From positions 1 to 27,625 of the IMG/VR virus record IMGVR_UViG_2623620506_000008: a DNA stretch of 27,625 bases, one strand, 5' to 3'. Numbering within the stretch: the first letter of the stretch is position 1; every line of letters begins with the position of its first letter. This document shows positions 11,555-19,353 of the stretch, in pieces. The stretch is from a virus. Its lineage: Duplodnaviria; Heunggongvirae; Uroviricota; Caudoviricetes. Under the pieces are notes generated by a model. It was not told where the DNA came from. It did no database searches and saw only the letters and a program-made list of their open reading frames with translations. The position numbers and the translations under genes are program-made.

Positions 11555-11751
11555 ACCTTCTGACGGAATGCCCCCGGCGTACGTTCCTGCCGGCGCGCCT
11601 CCGGCAGCCTGGCGCTGACGGTCCAGGTGAGATAATCACGGTTAAGGCTGCGCTCTACCTTCACGCCGCGGCGCCGGTATTCCCACATAAGCTCTTCGGC
11701 CTGCTCCGTGGTGCATTCGGTATGGTGAAACCAGGTATATTTCATTGGCAT
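11545..11751 (-). CDS. Hypothetical small nin-region protein
   Basis: Likely start is the ATG overlapping the upstream stop (TGATG at 11749-11753); the track ORF extends to 11835. Confidence 0.35.
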   Translation of the reverse strand: MPMKYTWFHHTECTTEQAEELMWEYRRRGVKVERSLNRDYLTWTVSARLPEARRQERTPGAFRQKVWG

Positions 11752-12347
11752 CACCCCGCGAAGCTCATGAGCTGCGCAGCGGCGTTCTCCGCGTCGCGCT
11801 GGCTCTTGAATGCCCTGGACAATATCCAGCGCCACAGGACATCAAGCGCAGCTTTGTACAGCTGCTGGAACTCGGTTTCGTCCATATTGGCGAAGGCAAT
11901 GCTGCGGGGATGTTTGCGGAGTGTGCCGTCAGGCAGCTGGATCGCGTCGTAGTGACCGGATTCGATGGTTACCCAGGCGCGGTAGGCATCGAATGACTTA
12001 CAGGCACTGATGCTGCCTGTGCGCTTATCAGCGATGCGATCGAGATATTGCTCAGCGGCATCCAGCAGCGCCCCTTCGTTCCCGCCGTAGGAGGCCAGAA
12101 ATCTGGCATAGCCGGTAACCAGCTTGCGTTCGTTGGAAGAGATCGCCCCGCCAGTTGGCTCCCAGTATTCAAACCCGAGGTTCAGAAGCGCGAAGAAGCG
12201 GCGATGGAAAGCCGGATTACGGACCTGTTTGAAGTCGGCCACCAGCACGGCGCCGAGCTTAATTTTTGATTGCAGTATGTCGCTGGTCTCCGGCGTGGCG
12301 GGGATCAGGATTCCTGAGGACTGCTTGATTAGTTGTAACTGCGCCAT
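11751..12347 (-). CDS. Hypothetical nin-region protein
   Basis: 198-aa ORF with ATG start and phage-like context; family not recognised with confidence. Confidence 0.5.
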   Translation of the reverse strand: MAQLQLIKQSSGILIPATPETSDILQSKIKLGAVLVADFKQVRNPAFHRRFFALLNLGFEYWEPTGGAISSNERKLVTGYARFLASYGGNEGALLDAAEQYLDRIADKRTGSISACKSFDAYRAWVTIESGHYDAIQLPDGTLRKHPRSIAFANMDETEFQQLYKAALDVLWRWILSRAFKSQRDAENAAAQLMSFAG

Positions 12348-12429
12348 GGGATTCTCCGTGGCGCATCGTGGTCAGGTTACCGGTTGTTCAGGCCGGTATA
12401 AACATTATGCTATTCAGACACTAAAAAGG

Positions 12430-12723
12430 TCAATTACTGGCTGATAACTCTCTGACGATCTCCACCAGAGTTTCGCGTGATATGACGCGTTCGTCCGTCT
12501 GAAGGCGCTTATAGCCAATTTCTGCGCCAGCAACATTCACCAGCACACGATCTCCTGGCCGGAGTTTAAACGAACACGCGGTAGCGCCATCAGAACGCCT
12601 CACGATATCGAAATACTCACCTCCATCAGAACACACCTCAGCCACATCAACCCCCTTCTTTGCTATCAACAAATTTATCTCTGCCGGCGGGAAAAGCTCC
12701 CCTTCATGAAACCAAGATAACAA
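12430..12723 (-). CDS. Hypothetical protein with no in-frame ATG
   Basis: ORF has no ATG; candidate starts are TTG at 12723 or GTG at 12648 (AAGGGGG RBS 5 nt upstream). Lies 78 bp downstream of the LexA box on the minus strand. Confidence 0.3.
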   Translation of the reverse strand: MLSWFHEGELFPPAEINLLIAKKGVDVAEVCSDGGEYFDIVRRSDGATACSFKLRPGDRVLVNVAGAEIGYKRLQTDERVISRETLVEIVRELSASN

Positions 12724-12800
12724 ATGGCTCTAATTTCCTAATAGGTTGGCCGACAAAGAATTCAAAAATTTTACTGCAGCTCTTAAACCATATCTCAAAA

Positions 12801-12820
12801 TACTGTATAAATAAACAGTG
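12801..12820. promoter_or_regulatory. LexA (SOS) box
   Basis: TACTGTATAAATAAACAGTG matches the E. coli LexA consensus TACTGTATATATATACAGTA at 17 of 20 positions with intact CTGT-N8-ACAG; overlaps a plus-strand TTAAAC-18 bp-TATAAA promoter-like pair. Confidence 0.6.
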
Positions 12821-13140
12821 TTTATCCGTTCGGCTTAAGTATGCACGTGAAAGGCATCTTTGCGCAAGGTCATTTATCTAATTGATTTGGATAATTTTTA
12901 TCGCTACTTACGTGTAAAAAATGATCGTTATTTTTAACACTCAGCGCAGAAAAGTATGCTGGTATAGATATCTTATTCCAATACTCTAGCTTACCACTCA
13001 GGGAGTAGGTCCCTACGCCAAGGGTATATAGAAGCACGGACGCATTCTGTCAGGTTGGTAATTTGTTACTGCAGAGTGTATGTTTCATAATCGTTTTAAT
13101 AGATTAATATCATTTCATCGATCCGTTAAGGCGATCAAGT

Positions 13141-14184
13141 ATGCACGGCTGGCCTTCATACGACCAATGCTTAGAAAAGCATTCTGAAGAAACCATAAGT
13201 GACTTGCACTTTGTTACCACACCACTTCGGAAATTTGAGCTGACCAGTGGCTGCGCAAACGGGGTAGCACATTGCCTATTTAATTCTATAGAAGTAAAGT
13301 ACCCAACATTATTCAGCTATTTGTTAAGGGAATTTATGAAAAGAGGAATGATAATCACGAGTAAAGTTGAGATAGATCAGGAAAATAACTCCGTTAAATT
13401 TAGACCAGAATTTAGCCAAAAGGCTCTGCGATATGGAGTGCTTTATCTTGATGAAATTTGTGTCGCGCAGACCTCTCTGTTTCAAATTGGATTGCCGGTT
13501 GATTGGCAACAACTAAAGAAGGAGAAAATAGTTAATGAGATCATTGGTAAGCCATCGCTCAGCGGAACGGTCGATTTTGCAAAAGCAGCTTTAGATGCAT
13601 ATTCCCAGTCGTTTTCTGAGTTAAACAAACGCCGAAATGAAACTTGGTGTCTCAATAAAGAATTCAAATTCCTCAATGAGCGCATTCCATTTATTGATTG
13701 TCATGGGGAAACTCTAACATTTTTGAATGCGCTTCCTGTGCCTACCGAAGACTTTCCTATAGGTGATCTTTATGAATTCCGCATAAAAAGAGATGATGAG
13801 CGCAAAGAGTTGATGAATTCAATTGATCGACTTAGGCTCAACGTTCTGAAAAGTGAAGATAAACACAATGCACTTAAAGTAGGCTTACTTGATGTTGAGA
13901 GTAATCTCATAACAATGAATCGCCTAATCAAAGAAACGAAGAGAGGTTTCTACCTTACTGATTTTTCATTGGATTACTCATCTAAAGATATGCTCGAAGT
14001 TTTCAAAGGAACATATGAAGCAACCACCACCTCAGGATTCGACAAACTTTCAGCATTAATCTTAGGTATGGGGGCATCACTAGCTTCAGGATTCAATTTT
14101 AAGGGGGGATACAGATATAAGCAGGCAAAACCAAACTCCCCTTATTTTTACGCAGCAGAGATAGTACATAAGTTTGATGTTTAA
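13141..14184 (+). CDS. Orphan low-GC protein, function unknown (moron)
   Basis: 347-aa ORF on the opposite strand to the surrounding early operon; GC about 32-43% against 55-60% flanks; alternative start ATG at 13336 with AAGGGA RBS; strong hairpin just after the stop. Confidence 0.6.
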   Translation: MHGWPSYDQCLEKHSEETISDLHFVTTPLRKFELTSGCANGVAHCLFNSIEVKYPTLFSYLLREFMKRGMIITSKVEIDQENNSVKFRPEFSQKALRYGVLYLDEICVAQTSLFQIGLPVDWQQLKKEKIVNEIIGKPSLSGTVDFAKAALDAYSQSFSELNKRRNETWCLNKEFKFLNERIPFIDCHGETLTFLNALPVPTEDFPIGDLYEFRIKRDDERKELMNSIDRLRLNVLKSEDKHNALKVGLLDVESNLITMNRLIKETKRGFYLTDFSLDYSSKDMLEVFKGTYEATTTSGFDKLSALILGMGASLASGFNFKGGYRYKQAKPNSPYFYAAEIVHKFDV

Positions 14185-14195
14185 TTCTTCAAAGT

Positions 14196-14228
14196 GAGGA
14201 TTCAAATTTTAAGCGCATTTGAATCCTC
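14196..14228 (+). terminator. Perfect 12-bp stem-loop after the orphan gene (terminator or insulator candidate)
   Basis: GAGGATTCAAAT-TTTAAGCGC-ATTTGAATCCTC, 12 nt after the stop; weak U-tract. Confidence 0.4.
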
Positions 14229-14458
14229 GTCTTACTAAGTATATATCGTTTATGCCTAGAGTTTAATTACTGGAGTAAGATTTTCACTGACTTAAAATAT
14301 TGAACATGAGACGTTTAGGTATTTTCGGAGTTTGCGAGCCGACTAAGTAAACACAGCGTCCTTGACGCCCTACACTGACAACCTAACCTAGTCAGCATCT
14401 TTTTACGCTGATTCACTAATTATGTATGCCTGCGCGTTTAAATGCTCATTGGTGAATG

Positions 14459-14953
14459 TCATGGGTTAGTCCTCGCTAAAACTCTGATTCCCTCAGCAAT
14501 GTCTACCAACGTTTCTGAATATTCTCGCTGCGCGTCATTTCCAAATTCAAACGAGCCAGTGTCGTTATCAACACGACCATGCTCGTTATCGAAAGACTCG
14601 CGCTGCTTATCAACCCAGTTCGCAGCAGCAGACACACCTTCACTAAAAGCTGATTCTGTAGGCATGAAAGACAGATCGGCGAAGAACTCACCAAAGCCAA
14701 AGCAGACTGAATATGCCAGGCGGCCATGCGGTTTGTAGCCAGGGTTAGTGATATCCGTTGTTGAGTACGTGGCGGTGATTTCCTCAACTACCGCCTCTGG
14801 CCGCGATGGGTTATCAGACCATGGGATGCAAATCAGGTCGAAGTCTCGCGCCATCGTTCCATGAATAGCCATGGCGTAACCGTGCTTACGAGCTATCTCT
14901 GCCAGTGCCGGGTAAAGCGCGCAATATACTGGTGCGAAGTTAGCTGGTTTCAT
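14459..14953 (-). CDS. Hypothetical early protein
   Basis: Probable start is the ATG at 14953 next to the upstream stop; the track ORF extends to 15034; no confident family. Confidence 0.45.
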   Translation of the reverse strand: MKPANFAPVYCALYPALAEIARKHGYAMAIHGTMARDFDLICIPWSDNPSRPEAVVEEITATYSTTDITNPGYKPHGRLAYSVCFGFGEFFADLSFMPTESAFSEGVSAAANWVDKQRESFDNEHGRVDNDTGSFEFGNDAQREYSETLVDIAEGIRVLARTNP

Positions 14954-16193: not shown

Positions 16194-16883
16194 TCACGCC
16201 CTCCCCTCGGATTTCATCTGTTCGTACTTAGCCTTGAGCATCTCTGCTGGTGTGGGGCCGCTGGCTTTAGCCGGCGCGGCGATGGCGCGGCGGATTGGCG
16301 GTACGGGCTTACCTGCGGCGACGCGCTCTTCCCATCCAGCCAGGACCTTGCCGGCGGCCTGGCGCATCTCGTTTTCGGTCATCTGCCGATCGGTACTCTG
16401 GCGTCGCAGCTCGGTGCAGATGTGGTAAAGCACCGGCGTTGGCCAGGGGTATTGCTCACTGGTCGGGAAACGGAACACCAGGCGGCGCCATTTCCAGTAC
16501 TCAGTCATCACGTCATCAACGGTGATCCCCAGCAGGCAGCGCTCCTCCTTGCACCAGGCGACGAACTGGCCCGGAGACGGCAGGAACGGCTTTTCCTGGC
16601 GGCGAGCGACACGCATGCCGGCGGCGACCTGGGCCATGGTGATGATCCCGTTCTCCTGAAACGCCATCAGCCACTGGCGGCGCAGCTCGTTGAAATCGCT
16701 CTGCTCACGGAAAACGGCCATTGCCGCCGGGAACGCGGCACGCAGCGCGCTGAACAGGTCGTTGAAAATCTCCGCCGTCTGCTCGACATCCGGGCGCTCT
16801 GCCGGAGCCTCAGGCATGCCATGGGCGATACGGCGGAAATTCTCGCGGTCACAGTTCGCCAGCTGCTCAGATAGTCTTTCCAT
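16194..16883 (-). CDS. P: Replication protein P-like (DnaB helicase loader)
   Basis: Clear similarity to recalled lambda P (RRIAHGMPE, IRRQW-AF-ENGI-TM-QV-AGMRVARRQ-PFLPSPGQFVAWC). Confidence 0.85.
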   Translation of the reverse strand: MERLSEQLANCDRENFRRIAHGMPEAPAERPDVEQTAEIFNDLFSALRAAFPAAMAVFREQSDFNELRRQWLMAFQENGIITMAQVAAGMRVARRQEKPFLPSPGQFVAWCKEERCLLGITVDDVMTEYWKWRRLVFRFPTSEQYPWPTPVLYHICTELRRQSTDRQMTENEMRQAAGKVLAGWEERVAAGKPVPPIRRAIAAPAKASGPTPAEMLKAKYEQMKSEGRA

Positions 16884-17910
16884 CGAACACCTCGTTGATC
16901 CAGTCTGTGTTGTTGAAGTCGATGCCCTGGGCAGCTGGGCGGGGAGCGGACGGGTTGCTCAGGCGCTTGGTGCTGAGCTTGTCCCATTGCTTACGCAGGC
17001 TGGACGGGCTCAGGATATTGGTCTTCCAGAACTCATCCTTGCTGGCCCATTTGAGAAGGTCGCAAATTTCGTAATGCGTGCGGTTATCCTGCTGGCGCAT
17101 CAGCCGGATGGTATTGGCCCACTCAACCCATTTCGGCTCGCTCAGAGTGGCGTTTACCGTCAGGAGTTGGGTGTATATCCAGCGAGCGGCTTTGAGGTCG
17201 TCAGCCGTTCCCCAGGATTTGCCGGAGGGGGTATAGATTCCATCTGCAGCTTCAGGGTGACGAGAAAGAAATTTTTCAATCGCGTCGTTTCGGGATTCGG
17301 CAGAATTCCGAGACGAAGAGATCTTATTATTTATATTGTTGTTATTACCTTGTTGTTCATGATGCGCGGCTAATTGCGCGGCCTTATGCGCGGGTAAATG
17401 CGCGGCATCTCCCTCACAAGCCCCGCCGTTACTGGGTTCTTCATGCGCGGCATTATGCTCGCCGTAATGCTCGCCGTAATGCGCGGGTAAATTGTCTATT
17501 TTTTGAGCGTAAAGGGCATAATTTGTGATGGTAATCACAGTGCCTTTTCGCTTCTCACCAGCGGTAGAAATCATCCCCTCTTTAACGAAAAGCGCCAGCA
17601 TCCGTTCCACTGCATGGCGACTTGTAGGCTCTCCAGCCCGGTCACATAATTTCAGGCCGAGATCGGCTGAGGTGGTCACCAGTTGTCCGGTTTGCAGCGG
17701 CCACTGACGGCCTTTAAAGTTCGCCGTGTAAGGCTGACGGGCTGCGCCCAAAAGAAGGTTCTCCCACAGCGTGCGCAGGTAAACATCTTTCGCCCAGGGC
17801 TTCTTCAATACACTCCGGTACAACGGGATGAATCCAGTCTTCTGGTTGTCCATCCGGTTGCTCCTGACGGCACTGCGTGCCGCAAAATCGGCGTAAGCGA
17901 CATTCGACAT
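16867..17910 (-). CDS. O: Replication initiator, O-like
   Basis: Immediately upstream of P; N-terminal DNA-binding-like domain, low-complexity middle encoded by iterons, C-terminal domain; preferred start ATG at 17910 with AAGGGG RBS (track start 17967 is TTG). Confidence 0.7.
   Translation of the reverse strand: MSNVAYADFAARSAVRSNRMDNQKTGFIPLYRSVLKKPWAKDVYLRTLWENLLLGAARQPYTANFKGRQWPLQTGQLVTTSADLGLKLCDRAGEPTSRHAVERMLALFVKEGMISTAGEKRKGTVITITNYALYAQKIDNLPAHYGEHYGEHNAAHEEPSNGGACEGDAAHLPAHKAAQLAAHHEQQGNNNNINNKISSSRNSAESRNDAIEKFLSRHPEAADGIYTPSGKSWGTADDLKAARWIYTQLLTVNATLSEPKWVEWANTIRLMRQQDNRTHYEICDLLKWASKDEFWKTNILSPSSLRKQWDKLSTKRLSNPSAPRPAAQGIDFNNTDWINEVFDGKTI
17311..17490. repeat. Origin-like iteron array with adjacent AT-rich tract inside the O-like gene
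   Basis: Two arrays of four 12-bp units (consensus ATGCGCGG plus 4 nt) at 17362-17409 and 17443-17490; AT-rich tract 17311-17357. Confidence 0.6.
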
Positions 17911-18037
17911 GGCTATGCCCCTTTCGCCTGGTGTTTTGTACATGTATTTGTCATAATGACCTCGCAATTACGTCCCGTTTTTGCACCCGAAAGCCGTTGG
18001 TGTTCACGCACCGCGGCTTTCACCATTTCTGAGCCCG

Positions 18038-18606: not shown

Positions 18607-18828
18607 CTACTTTGGTAATCCGTCAGTGGGGTTAGGGTAAGCTTCAGGATCAATCTCGTGTGGTGTCACTTGCCATTCCAGGAACTGACAAAGGGGAATG
18701 ATTCTTTTTTGTGGCACTCCGCTCGCATAGATCCACTTGCCGACAGCCTGACTGCTAATACCGAAGTGCTTCCCGATACGAGTGCGCGTTGCAGCTTTGC
18801 TTATTTTTTCTTGGGTTTGTTTGTTCAT
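18607..18828 (-). CDS. cro: Cro-like HTH regulator
   Basis: 73-aa product with HTH (TRIGKHFGISSQAVGKWI), AAGGAG RBS, divergent from the repressor gene; the track ORF extends to 19134. Confidence 0.65.
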   Translation of the reverse strand: MNKQTQEKISKAATRTRIGKHFGISSQAVGKWIYASGVPQKRIIPLCQFLEWQVTPHEIDPEAYPNPTDGLPK

Positions 18829-18842
18829 GTGCTCTCCTTCAT

Positions 18843-18925
18843 TGATGAAACAAAGCATACATGACGAAAGTTTATGTTTCAACACAACGAAAGATAATGT
18901 TTTAATGCTGAGTGAAACCTTAGGT
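18843..18925. promoter_or_regulatory. OR-like operator/promoter region between cro and repressor
   Basis: 17-mer ACGAAAGTTTATGTTTC (18864-18880) nearly identical to a 17-mer after the repressor gene; extra GAAAC half-sites; palindrome AACCTTAGGTT (18915-18925). Confidence 0.5.
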
Positions 18926-18933
18926 TGTAAAAT

Positions 18934-19353
18934 GTGCGTATGAATGAAATTACTTTCCCGACCTTCGCTAGAAGAATTCAACAAGTAATGGCTGAAAACG
19001 GCTGGTCGAAATCTGACCTCGCCAAAAAGGTCATGCTTTCGCATACGGCCGTTCAAAATTGGGCTAAGGGTAGAAATGTAGCCAGTGGAGAGCGGTTGAA
19101 GAGGCTTGCTGCTGTAACAGGAAAGCCTGAGCATTGGTTCTTTATGGAGGAAGGTCAGGAAGATGCGGCGACAAACACCTTGGGTCAGTCGGCTGTAGAA
19201 CTTGATGAGAAAGAACAGGCCCTACTTTCCCTCTTTAACCAGCTCCCTGAAGCTGAAAAGTTAAGACTCATCCTTCACACTAAAGCTGTCCTTCATGAGA
19301 TTGAGCTTCTAAAAAACGACGTATACGACATTATCAACAGCTCTAAAACATAG
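18934..19353 (+). CDS. cI: Prophage repressor, RacR/CI-like HTH, no peptidase S24 domain
   Basis: N-terminal HTH (WSKSDLAKKVMLSHTAVQNWAKGR), 139 aa, no Ser/Lys autocleavage domain; divergent from cro; first ATG at 18940. Confidence 0.7.
   Translation: MRMNEITFPTFARRIQQVMAENGWSKSDLAKKVMLSHTAVQNWAKGRNVASGERLKRLAAVTGKPEHWFFMEEGQEDAATNTLGQSAVELDEKEQALLSLFNQLPEAEKLRLILHTKAVLHEIELLKNDVYDIINSSKT

What the first reader, a model, noticed from the sequence alone, without database searches (positions are those of the whole stretch)
12801..12820. Near-consensus LexA box in the low-GC island
TACTGTATAAATAAACAGTG matches the LexA consensus at 17 of 20 positions with intact CTGT-N8-ACAG. It overlaps a plus-strand -35/-10-like pair (TTAAAC, 18 bp, TATAAA) pointing at the orphan gene, and it is also 78 bp upstream of the minus-strand 97-aa ORF. 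Either gene could be SOS-controlled. Because the repressor at 18934-19353 has no S24 autocleavage domain, a LexA-controlled antirepressor is an attractive explanation for how this prophage senses DNA damage.
Basis: partly seen in the sequence, partly recalled or inferred. Interest (0 to 1): 0.75.

Follow-up and report, generated by a model that had tools for sequence, protein, structure and literature searches.

The report
LexA switch for a prophage antirepressor
The site is very probably a real binding site for the DNA-damage repressor LexA, placed in front of a small gene related to the Salmonella Gifsy "antirepressors", so this E. coli prophage most likely senses DNA damage in an already described way.

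Summary
TACTGTATAAATAAACAGTG lies at 12801-12820 and matches the LexA consensus at 17 of 20 positions. It is unique in the window and is not expected by chance, even in AT-rich DNA.

The site belongs to the minus-strand gene, not to the 347-aa orphan gene. That minus-strand gene is not 97 aa. It is a 71-aa gene starting at a GTG (12645..12430) behind a strong ribosome-binding site.

The product aligns end to end with GftA, the LexA-controlled antirepressor of Salmonella prophages Gifsy-1/2 (30% identity, same PHROG family). It sits in the same place, directly upstream of the irsA/DUF1367 gene (86% identical to Gifsy-1). The window's 137-aa repressor has only a helix-turn-helix domain and is 65% identical to the non-cleavable Gifsy repressor.

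In 39 of 40 related loci, a strong LexA box lies 130-172 nt upstream of the homologous GTG. The CTGT/ACAG arms never change, the centre varies, and the upstream cargo genes differ.

The one architectural difference from Gifsy is that no dinI gene follows the box. A conserved leader of about 155 nt takes its place.

This is a new, unannotated member of a known kind.

The parts
12801..12820 (.). LexA (SOS) box, TACTGTATAAATAAACAGTG; on the gene's strand it reads CACTGTTTATTTATACAGTA
   Evidence: 17 of 20 to consensus, unique, 0 of 100 shuffles. 24.9 bits, against 24.0 for the experimentally required Gifsy box. 0 of 5000 local-composition simulations reach it. Positions 3-6 and 15-19 are invariant in 30 distinct homologous sequences, while positions 11-13 vary freely.
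12862..12867 (-). Candidate -35 hexamer TTGCGC of the best-conserved promoter (inferred)
   Evidence: TTGnnn, 17-18 nt, CAyACT, then 15-18 nt to the box is kept in 27 of 30 distinct upstream sequences, while the spacer sequence varies. It was not called by the simple scan. It is unmapped.
12838..12843 (-). Candidate -10 hexamer CATACT. It implies a transcription start near 12831, with the LexA box at about +12 to +31 (inferred)
   Evidence: An alternative -10, TATGGT at 12787-12792 (kept in 23 of 30), would place the box over the -35 and spacer.
12646..12800 (-). Conserved leader of about 155 nt between the box and the start codon, in place of the dinI gene of Gifsy phages
   Evidence: Aligns across 10 loci. 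No dinI is present anywhere. No covariation, and it is not unusually stable as RNA (z = 0.40).
12651..12657 (-). Ribosome-binding site AAGGGGG, 5 nt before the GTG
   Evidence: Conserved in all homologous loci and in Gifsy gftA.
12430..12645 (-). 71-aa antirepressor gene with a GTG start, GftA/GfoA family
   Evidence: 30% identity over the full length to Gifsy-1/2 STM2621.1n = GftA, pairwise E 3e-11. Both fall in phrog_4847. Most homologues are 71 aa and the N-terminal extension is not conserved. NCBI calls the same 71-aa protein in E. coli.
11751..12347 (-). irsA / DUF1367 (NinB-like) gene immediately downstream, as in the Gifsy operon
   Evidence: Pfam DUF1367, E 4e-94. 86% identical to Gifsy-1 STM2620.
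18940..19353 (+). Prophage repressor, 137 aa, HTH only; the presumed target of the antirepressor
   Evidence: Only HTH_3 matches, no S24. 65% identical over the full length to the 136-aa Gifsy-1/2 repressor, E 2e-66.
18607..18828 (-). Cro-like gene (YdaS family), the first gene of the lytic operon that the repressor holds off
12821..13137 (-). AT-rich conserved non-coding block upstream of the box. It travels with the antirepressor module and ends at the cargo junction
   Evidence: Homology to relatives runs to 13126-13140 and stops there. No Rfam match. Function unknown.
13141..14184 (+). 347-aa DUF6236 gene: a swapped-in cargo gene, not part of the SOS module
   Evidence: Pfam DUF6236. Absent from relatives that keep the box. 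It has its own promoter-like sites at 13063-13113 and a 12-bp hairpin after its stop codon.

Best explanation
The 20-mer is the operator through which host LexA keeps a small prophage antirepressor gene (12645..12430, minus strand) silent in the lysogen.

Proposed sequence of events:
1. DNA damage activates RecA and LexA cleaves itself.
2. The promoter next to the box fires and the 71-aa protein is made.
3. The protein binds the 137-aa HTH-only repressor (18940-19353) and takes it off its operators.
4. The cro/cII/replication operon is switched on and the prophage is induced.

This is the Gifsy-1/2/3 strategy. Here the antirepressor is the first gene after the box, behind a leader of about 155 nt, and there is no dinI gene.

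What is shown here: the quality and conservation of the site, the gene model, the homologies and the synteny. What is inferred: LexA binding, the promoter position, the protein-protein interaction and its consequence.
For: **Site quality.** 17 of 20 to consensus and unique. It scores 24.9 bits, equal to or better than the Gifsy box at 24.0 bits, which Lemire et al. showed is required for mitomycin induction. Nothing comparable arises under a local AT-rich null model.

**Conservation of the box.**
- A box of 19.5-28.3 bits lies 150-156 nt upstream of the GTG in all 10 distinct genome and metagenome loci.
- It lies 130-172 nt upstream in 29 of 30 IMG/VR loci.
- The CTGT/ACAG(T) arms are invariant and the centre is free to vary.
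- In L007 the palindrome is flipped yet intact.
- The box stays when the upstream cargo changes.

**The gene.**
- It starts at a GTG behind AAGGGGG, as gftA does.
- It aligns end to end with GftA and falls in the same PHROG family.
- It lies directly upstream of an irsA homologue that is 86% identical to the Gifsy one.

**The repressor.**
- It has only an HTH domain and is 65% identical to the Gifsy-1/2 repressor.
- At least 8 IMG/VR contigs carry both this antirepressor type and a repressor of this type.

**The host.** It is E. coli, so the E. coli LexA matrix applies directly.

**Precedent for distance.** Salmonella tisB has its LexA box 236 bp from the ATG and is strongly induced.
Against: - No experiment was possible.
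- The antirepressor is only 30% identical to GftA, while the repressor is 65% identical to its Gifsy counterpart. Cognate pairing is therefore not demonstrated, and Gifsy antirepressors are known to act in trans on other prophages.
- The promoter is unmapped. Two candidates exist, and the better-conserved one puts the box downstream of the start site (about +12 to +31) rather than over the hexamers.
- The conserved 155-nt leader and the 320-nt block upstream have no assigned role and could add other controls.
- No terminator was found just upstream of the box, unlike in Gifsy.
- The structure model has moderate confidence and matches nothing informative.
- The LexA matrix was built from boxes recalled from memory.
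Confidence: 0.85

Rival explanations
1. The LexA box controls the divergent 347-aa DUF6236 gene on the plus strand, alone or together with the antirepressor. That would make the cargo gene an SOS-induced function.
For: The box lies between the two divergent genes. A weak -35/-10-like pair (TTAAAC, 17 nt, TATAAA) overlaps it on the plus strand. A palindromic operator can in principle act on both strands.
Against: The box is 320 nt from that gene's ATG. Better promoter-like sites lie much closer to the gene, at 13063-13113. The hexamer at the -10 position reads TATGGA, TATGCA, TACGGA or TATGTA in most relatives. The box is kept in loci that have quite different cargo or co-directional genes there, and homology stops at 13137, just before the gene.
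Confidence: 0.07
2. The box and gene form a working SOS unit, but the 71-aa protein does not inactivate the resident repressor. It acts on another prophage's repressor in trans, or has another SOS-related role.
For: There is only 30% identity to GftA. Gifsy and Fels-1 antirepressors show non-cognate specificity. A distant homologue in Klebsiella phage ST16-OXA48phi5.1 lacks any LexA box. Rem of Qin is only marginally similar.
Against: The repressor has no other evident route to sense damage. The module sits in the same phage position as in Gifsy. This antirepressor type co-occurs with GtgR-like repressors on at least 8 viral contigs.
Confidence: 0.08
3. It is a chance palindrome in AT-rich DNA with no function.
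For: The core CTGT-N8-ACAG alone is expected 0.43 times per window, and the surrounding DNA is AT-rich.
Against: 0 of 100 shuffles and 0 of 5000 local simulations reach the full match. The arms are invariant and the position is fixed in 39 of 40 related loci, despite 20-30% divergence around the box.
Confidence: 0.01

Closest known systems
GftA / GfoA / GfhA antirepressors of Salmonella prophages Gifsy-2, -1 and -3, with their LexA-controlled dinI-antirepressor-irsA operon (Lemire, Figueroa-Bossi & Bossi 2011, PMC3121763)
   Same: A small protein of about 70 aa with a GUG start and a strong ribosome-binding site. Full-length sequence homology and the same PHROG family. The gene lies directly upstream of irsA/DUF1367, downstream of the replication genes and far from the immunity region. 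A high-affinity LexA box sits at the head of the unit. The partner repressor is about 136 aa, HTH-only and not self-cleaving (65% identical).
   Different: There is no dinI gene between the box and the antirepressor; a conserved non-coding leader of about 155 nt is there instead. The promoter region differs: in Gifsy the -10 overlaps the left arm of the box. No terminator was recognised just upstream. The antirepressor sequence is divergent (30% identity). The host is E. coli or another Enterobacteriaceae rather than Salmonella.
FsoA (Fels-1) and Rem (Qin cryptic prophage, antirepressor of DicA; PMC10448788)
   Same: Small antirepressors aimed at DicA/GtgR-type short repressors.
   Different: FsoA is controlled by the Fels-1 repressor, not by LexA, and the signal for Rem is unknown. 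Rem is only marginally similar to the window protein (E 0.079).
Tum of coliphage 186 and AntC of phage N15
   Same: The logic is the same: a LexA-repressed gene encodes a protein that inactivates a non-cleavable phage repressor.
   Different: These are unrelated phage types (P2-like; linear plasmid prophage). Tum is 146 aa with a DinI-like half. Sequence relatedness was not compared directly here; the window protein matches only phrog_4847.
Lambda CI / P22 C2 induction by RecA-stimulated self-cleavage
   Same: Both couple prophage induction to the SOS signal.
   Different: The window repressor lacks the S24 peptidase domain. The damage sensor is host LexA acting at a separate locus, so induction is in principle reversible.

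Membership tests
Gifsy-type LexA-controlled antirepressor module | Small (about 70 aa) protein homologous to GftA/GfoA | tested here: met
   71 aa against 73 aa, aligned end to end, 30% identity, 58% positives, pairwise E 3e-11. Both hit phrog_4847: E 7e-11 for the window protein and 1e-45 for GftA.
Gifsy-type LexA-controlled antirepressor module | Non-canonical GUG start behind a G-rich ribosome-binding site | tested here: met
   GTG at 12645 preceded by AAGGGGG-N5. The same holds in all homologues and in gftA.
Gifsy-type LexA-controlled antirepressor module | Location outside the immunity region, after the replication genes and immediately upstream of irsA (DUF1367) | tested here: met
   Gene order in the window and in L002-L013 matches Gifsy-1. 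The irsA homologue is 86% identical.
Gifsy-type LexA-controlled antirepressor module | LexA box at the promoter of the unit | tested here: met
   A 24.9-bit box, conserved in 39 of 40 loci. Its position relative to the true promoter is only inferred.
Gifsy-type LexA-controlled antirepressor module | dinI homologue as first gene of the operon | tested here: not met
   tblastn with Gifsy DinI finds nothing in the window or in any related locus. Lemire et al. report that deleting dinI does not affect induction, so this feature belongs to the canonical layout and is not needed for the mechanism.
Gifsy-type LexA-controlled antirepressor module | Rho-independent terminator just upstream of the LexA box | tested here: inconclusive
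   None was called next to the box in the window. Relatives L005 and L025 have a clear terminator plus a Gifsy-like promoter joined to the box.
Gifsy-type LexA-controlled antirepressor module | Partner repressor short, HTH-only, without the Ala-Gly / Ser-Lys self-cleavage apparatus | tested here: met
   137 aa with only HTH_3 / HTH_31 / HTH_26 matches. 65% identical to the 136-aa Gifsy-1/2 repressor.
Gifsy-type LexA-controlled antirepressor module | Antirepressor binds the repressor and releases it from DNA; induction requires LexA cleavage | not testable with these tools
   This needs pull-down or EMSA, a lexA(Ind-) background and reporter fusions.
Gammaproteobacterial LexA (SOS) box | CTGT-N8-ACAG palindrome in an AT-rich 20-mer with a low heterology index | tested here: met
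   The HI-like value is 3.2. Published values for Gifsy dinI boxes are 3.9-4.6 with 14-23-fold induction. The matrix was built from recalled sites.
Gammaproteobacterial LexA (SOS) box | Physical binding by LexA and DNA-damage-dependent transcription | not testable with these tools
   EMSA or ChIP and RNA-seq with and without mitomycin C are required.
P22 Ant-type antirepressors (ANT / KilAC domain proteins) | Large protein carrying ANT or Bro/KilAC domains | tested here: not met
   There are no Pfam matches for the 71/97-aa protein.

The most novel reading that the evidence does not exclude
The antirepressor travels as a conserved AT-rich unit of about 700 bp (12430-13137). Its non-coding parts may do more than carry a LexA operator. 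These parts are:
- an array of GATC/ATCGAT motifs that ends exactly at the cargo junction;
- a 120-nt block upstream of the promoter;
- a 155-nt leader.

The reading is that they provide a second input on induction, for example Dam/SeqA methylation state or an unknown DNA-binding protein. Alternatively they act as a docking site where cargo genes such as DUF6236 are exchanged. Under this reading the LexA box itself also serves as a recombination joint between promoter modules: the breakpoint in L030 lies inside the box, and L005 and L025 have a Gifsy-type promoter joined to this module's leader at the box.
Probability: 0.15. Interest if true: 0.5.

Novelty: new member of a known kind. Interest (0 to 1): 0.3.

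Why it matters
It assigns a function to a gene that databases list only as a 71-aa "hypothetical protein" of E. coli, or miscall as a 97-119-aa ORF. It also explains how a prophage with a non-cleavable repressor can respond to DNA damage. That response matters for predicting which prophages are induced by quinolones, mitomycin C and other SOS-inducing drugs.

It also shows that the Gifsy strategy exists outside Salmonella in a variant without dinI, found in E. coli, Enterobacter, Citrobacter, Leclercia and Silvania genomes and in about 30 viral contigs. This agrees with the earlier observation that dinI is dispensable for induction.

It does not open a new question. The mechanism has been known since 2011.

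Tried and rejected
1. **The 97-aa gene model.** Rejected. Most homologues are 71 aa, the N-terminal extension is not conserved and is frameshifted in some, and a conserved ribosome-binding site plus GTG sits at 12645.
2. **A structured RNA or riboswitch in the leader or upstream block.** There is no Rfam match. RNAalifold gives almost no covariation. The leader is not more stable than shuffles (z = 0.40).
3. **The leader as a decayed dinI.** tblastn and blastn find no similarity.
4. **A conserved small ORF in the block.** An upstream ORF (MNFSSGEPIRKFAPFVILAL...) recurs in many relatives and is sometimes fused in frame to the antirepressor. It is broken in the window and its close relatives, while the nucleotides stay conserved.
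5. **Shared operators between the immunity region and the antirepressor upstream region.** The immunity region has TGAAAC-type inverted repeats. The upstream block has GATC/ATCGAT motifs. There is no overlap.
6. **Structure-based clues.**
   - The AlphaFold2 model has pLDDT 70.7, with four strands and a C-terminal helix.
   - Foldseek against the PDB gives nothing with E < 0.5.
   - The PDB sequence search gave no significant match (best E 0.39).
7. **Defence-system models (PADLOC)** for the DUF6236 protein and its neighbours: no hits.
8. **The genome-contig scan** returned only 3 loci. The viral-contig scan and the exact-protein look-ups were more productive.
9. **E. coli complete-genome and phage DNA searches** with 12300-13200 matched only the start of the DUF1367 gene.

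Full report
**1. The observation**

Window 12801-12820 reads TACTGTATAAATAAACAGTG. It differs from the 20-nt LexA consensus at three positions. It is the only such match in 27.6 kb, and none arose in 100 dinucleotide shuffles. The bare CTGT-N8-ACAG core is also unique, but on its own it would occur by chance in about a third of shuffles.

I built a symmetrised weight matrix from 25 E. coli LexA boxes recalled from the literature. This is my own recollection, not a curated file.
- The site scores 24.9 bits with a heterology-index-like value of 3.2. It would rank third among the 25 real sites.
- The next best site in the window scores 13.1 bits.
- The site lies in AT-rich DNA (GC about 0.40 over 12501-14500), so I simulated 5000 regions of 2 kb from a first-order Markov model of that local sequence. 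None reached 24.9 bits; the maximum was 23.7.

**2. The gene it serves**

The minus-strand "97-aa ORF" (TTG 12723) is a mechanical artefact. Of 38 database homologues, most are 71 aa. The residues before position 27 are not conserved and are frameshifted in some. A GTG at 12645 follows AAGGGGG-N5 in the window and in every homologous locus. NCBI annotates exactly this 71-aa protein in E. coli assemblies. The gene is therefore 12645..12430, and the box ends 155 nt upstream of it, not 78.

**3. What the gene is**

tblastn against phage genomes found weak hits only in Gifsy-1, Gifsy-2 and one Klebsiella phage. The Gifsy hit is STM2621.1n, a 73-aa GUG-initiated ORF between a dinI homologue and STM2620. 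Lemire, Figueroa-Bossi and Bossi (PMC3121763) identified this ORF as gftA. It is the antirepressor that inactivates the Gifsy-2 repressor (and, in LT2, the Gifsy-1 repressor) by binding it. It lies in a LexA-controlled operon, dinI-gftA-irsA, outside the immunity region.

| Window feature | Gifsy counterpart | Result |
|---|---|---|
| 71-aa protein | GftA (73 aa) | aligned end to end, 30% identity, 58% positives, pairwise E 3e-11 |
| 71-aa protein | GftA | both in phrog_4847, E 7e-11 and 1e-45 |
| DUF1367 gene 11751-12347 | irsA (STM2620) | 86% identical |
| 137-aa repressor 18940-19353 | 136-aa Gifsy-1/2 repressor | 65% identical over the full length; only HTH families match |

That paper reports that the Gifsy repressor is not cleaved on induction. 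The Cro-like (YdaS) and CII-like (YdaT) neighbours complete a Gifsy/Rac-type immunity region.

**4. Is the box tied to this gene?**

I collected homologous loci by three routes: exact-protein look-up, a genome scan and a viral-contig scan.
- In all 10 distinct genome and metagenome loci, the best LexA-matrix hit in the whole locus (19.5-27.4 bits) lies 150-156 nt upstream of the GTG.
- In 29 of 30 IMG/VR loci it lies 130-172 nt upstream, scoring 19.5-28.3 bits.
- The exception, L030, has a rearrangement whose breakpoint falls inside the box, so only the right arm remains.
- Among 30 distinct sequences, box positions 3-6 (CTGT) and 15-19 (ACAGT) never vary. Positions 11-13 take up to all four bases. 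This is the pattern expected for selection on LexA contacts.
- In L007 the palindrome is present in the flipped orientation.

The genes upstream of the box differ from locus to locus. They include a DNA methylase, a pol III theta homologue, small reverse-strand ORFs and others. Three contigs that are 93% identical to the window from 13137 down to 12300 carry a different, co-directional gene where the window has the 347-aa DUF6236 gene, and they still have the box. Homology to all relatives stops at 13126-13140, immediately before that gene's ATG at 13141.

Two conclusions follow. First, the "low-GC island" is composite: a conserved AT-rich antirepressor module (12430-13137) plus a swapped-in cargo gene (13141-14184) with its own hairpin at 14196-14228. 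Second, the box belongs to the module, not to the cargo.

**5. Promoter**

Its -10 position reads TATGGA, TATGCA, TACGGA or TATGTA in most relatives.

On the gene's strand there are two candidates.
- **TTGCGC (12867-12862), 18 nt, CATACT (12843-12838).** The pattern TTGnnn, 17-18 nt, CAyACT at 15-18 nt from the box is kept in 27 of 30 distinct sequences, with a variable spacer. It implies a start near 12831, with LexA bound at about +12 to +31, inside the RNA polymerase footprint.
- **A TATGGT-like -10 (12792-12787) with a weak -35 inside the box.** It is kept in 23 of 30 sequences.

Both candidates would be blocked by LexA. Which one is used is an inference that needs transcript mapping. Two relatives (L005, L025) instead have a terminator and a Gifsy-like promoter, whose -10 overlaps the left arm of the box, joined to this module's leader.

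**6. Differences from Gifsy**

No dinI homologue exists in the window or in any related locus. The antirepressor is the first gene after the box, behind a leader of about 155 nt that is conserved at the nucleotide level. That leader shows no covariation and no unusual RNA stability. An upstream ORF present in many relatives is broken in the window.

Lemire et al. found that dinI is dispensable for induction. Its absence therefore alters the layout, not the expected mechanism. I did not find a terminator directly upstream of the box in the window.

**7. Mechanism**

Inferred from points 1-6 and from the Gifsy experiments:
1. In the lysogen, LexA occupies the box and keeps the 71-aa gene off.
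2. SOS-induced LexA cleavage allows the gene to be expressed.
3. The protein binds the 137-aa repressor and displaces it from its operators. These are probably the TGAAAC-type inverted repeats at about 18844-18900.
4. The cro-side operon is switched on.

Read-through from that operon would then reinforce antirepressor expression.

The weakest link is cognate pairing. The antirepressor is far more diverged from GftA (30%) than the repressor is from its Gifsy counterpart (65%), and Gifsy antirepressors are known to cross-react. At least 8 viral contigs carry both this antirepressor type and a repressor 65-72% identical to the window's. This is consistent with pairing but also reflects shared phage ancestry.

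**8. Other checks**

- The family is small: 23 clusters at E <= 0.001 among 1.8 billion representatives.
- Rem of Qin, an experimentally supported antirepressor of DicA, is only marginally similar.
- A distant homologue in Klebsiella phage ST16-OXA48phi5.1 has no LexA box. This parallels Fels-1 FsoA, which is not LexA-controlled.
- The AlphaFold2 model (pLDDT 70.7; four strands and a C-terminal helix) has no significant PDB neighbour. No solved relative exists by sequence either.
- Published heterology indices for the Gifsy dinI boxes are 3.9-4.6, with 14-23-fold induction by nalidixic acid. A LexA box 236 bp from the tisB ATG is functional. So neither the score nor the 155-nt distance argues against function.

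**9. Verdict**

It is a new, unannotated member of the known Gifsy-type LexA/antirepressor kind, in a layout without dinI, in an E. coli prophage. Interest is modest. The conserved non-coding DNA around the box is the only part with unexplained features.

Noticed in passing
window 13080-13135 (read on the minus strand); consensus from L002, L004, L006, L009, L010, L013: There is an array of GATC/ATCGAT motifs arranged as nested inverted repeats: TGATCGATAnTACCGATCGATAnAATnAnATTGATCTATGAAATCGATTAT. It lies at the far end of the conserved block and ends exactly at the junction where cargo genes are exchanged. It is partly degenerate in the window. It has no Rfam match and no resemblance to the immunity operators. 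Function unknown.
   Followed up: partly
window 13141-14184 (+), hairpin 14196-14228: The 347-aa DUF6236 gene is a cargo swap. Close relatives (L021-L023) have other genes at this position, with the breakpoint at about 13138. The identical protein occurs on at least 22 contigs of E. coli assemblies. There is no PADLOC hit. It has its own promoter-like sites at 13063-13113 and a perfect 12-bp hairpin after the stop codon.
   Followed up: partly
L030 about 2815-2835; L005 and L025 upstream of the box: Mosaic joints fall at or inside the LexA box. In L030 only the right arm is left, fused to an unrelated upstream gene. In L005 and L025 a terminator plus a Gifsy-like promoter (TTGATC...TGTACTGT) is joined at the box to this module's leader without dinI.
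   Followed up: partly
L007 3924-3943 (Enterobacter soli): The LexA palindrome is present in the opposite orientation relative to the antirepressor gene (TGCTGTATAAATAAACAGTG on the sense strand), while the flanks remain collinear.
   Followed up: no
leader of relatives (e.g. L003, L009, L010, L024, L027, L034, L042); window 12700-12765: A recurrent upstream ORF beginning MNFSSGEPIRKFAPFVILAL lies in the leader. In some loci it is in frame with the antirepressor, giving 111-119-aa gene calls. In the window it has no ATG and stops after 11 codons, although the nucleotides (CGGCnAACCTATTAGGAAA) stay conserved.
   Followed up: partly
window 17165-17184: This is the second-best LexA-matrix hit in the window (AGTTGGGTGTATATCCAGCG, 13.1 bits), inside the 16867-17967 minus-strand ORF; related loci have a replication-protein O gene at the corresponding position. 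The Salmonella SOS survey also lists weak LexA boxes at Gifsy replication genes. It is probably too weak to matter.
   Followed up: no
window 12404-12433 (-): A good promoter-like site (TTGACC, 18 nt, CATAAT; 10 of 12) lies in the 82-nt gap between the antirepressor stop codon and the DUF1367/irsA start. The irsA homologue may therefore also have its own promoter.
   Followed up: no
L014 (Klebsiella phage ST16-OXA48phi5.1) 2399-2692: A distant homologue of the antirepressor lies upstream of DUF1367 with no LexA-like site anywhere in the 5-kb locus (best 3.8 bits). It may be a member of the family that LexA does not control, as with Fels-1 FsoA.
   Followed up: partly
window 18835-18935: The intergenic region between the cro-like and repressor genes contains TGAAAC/GTTTCA inverted repeats (e.g. 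TGAAACAAAGCATACATGACGAAAGTTTATGTTTCA). These are probably the repressor's operators.
   Followed up: no
whole window: The prophage GC content (about 55-59% outside the island) is well above that of E. coli, although the exact proteins are found in E. coli assemblies. Close relatives occur in Enterobacter, Leclercia, Citrobacter and Silvania, which suggests a phage lineage shared across Enterobacteriaceae.
   Followed up: no
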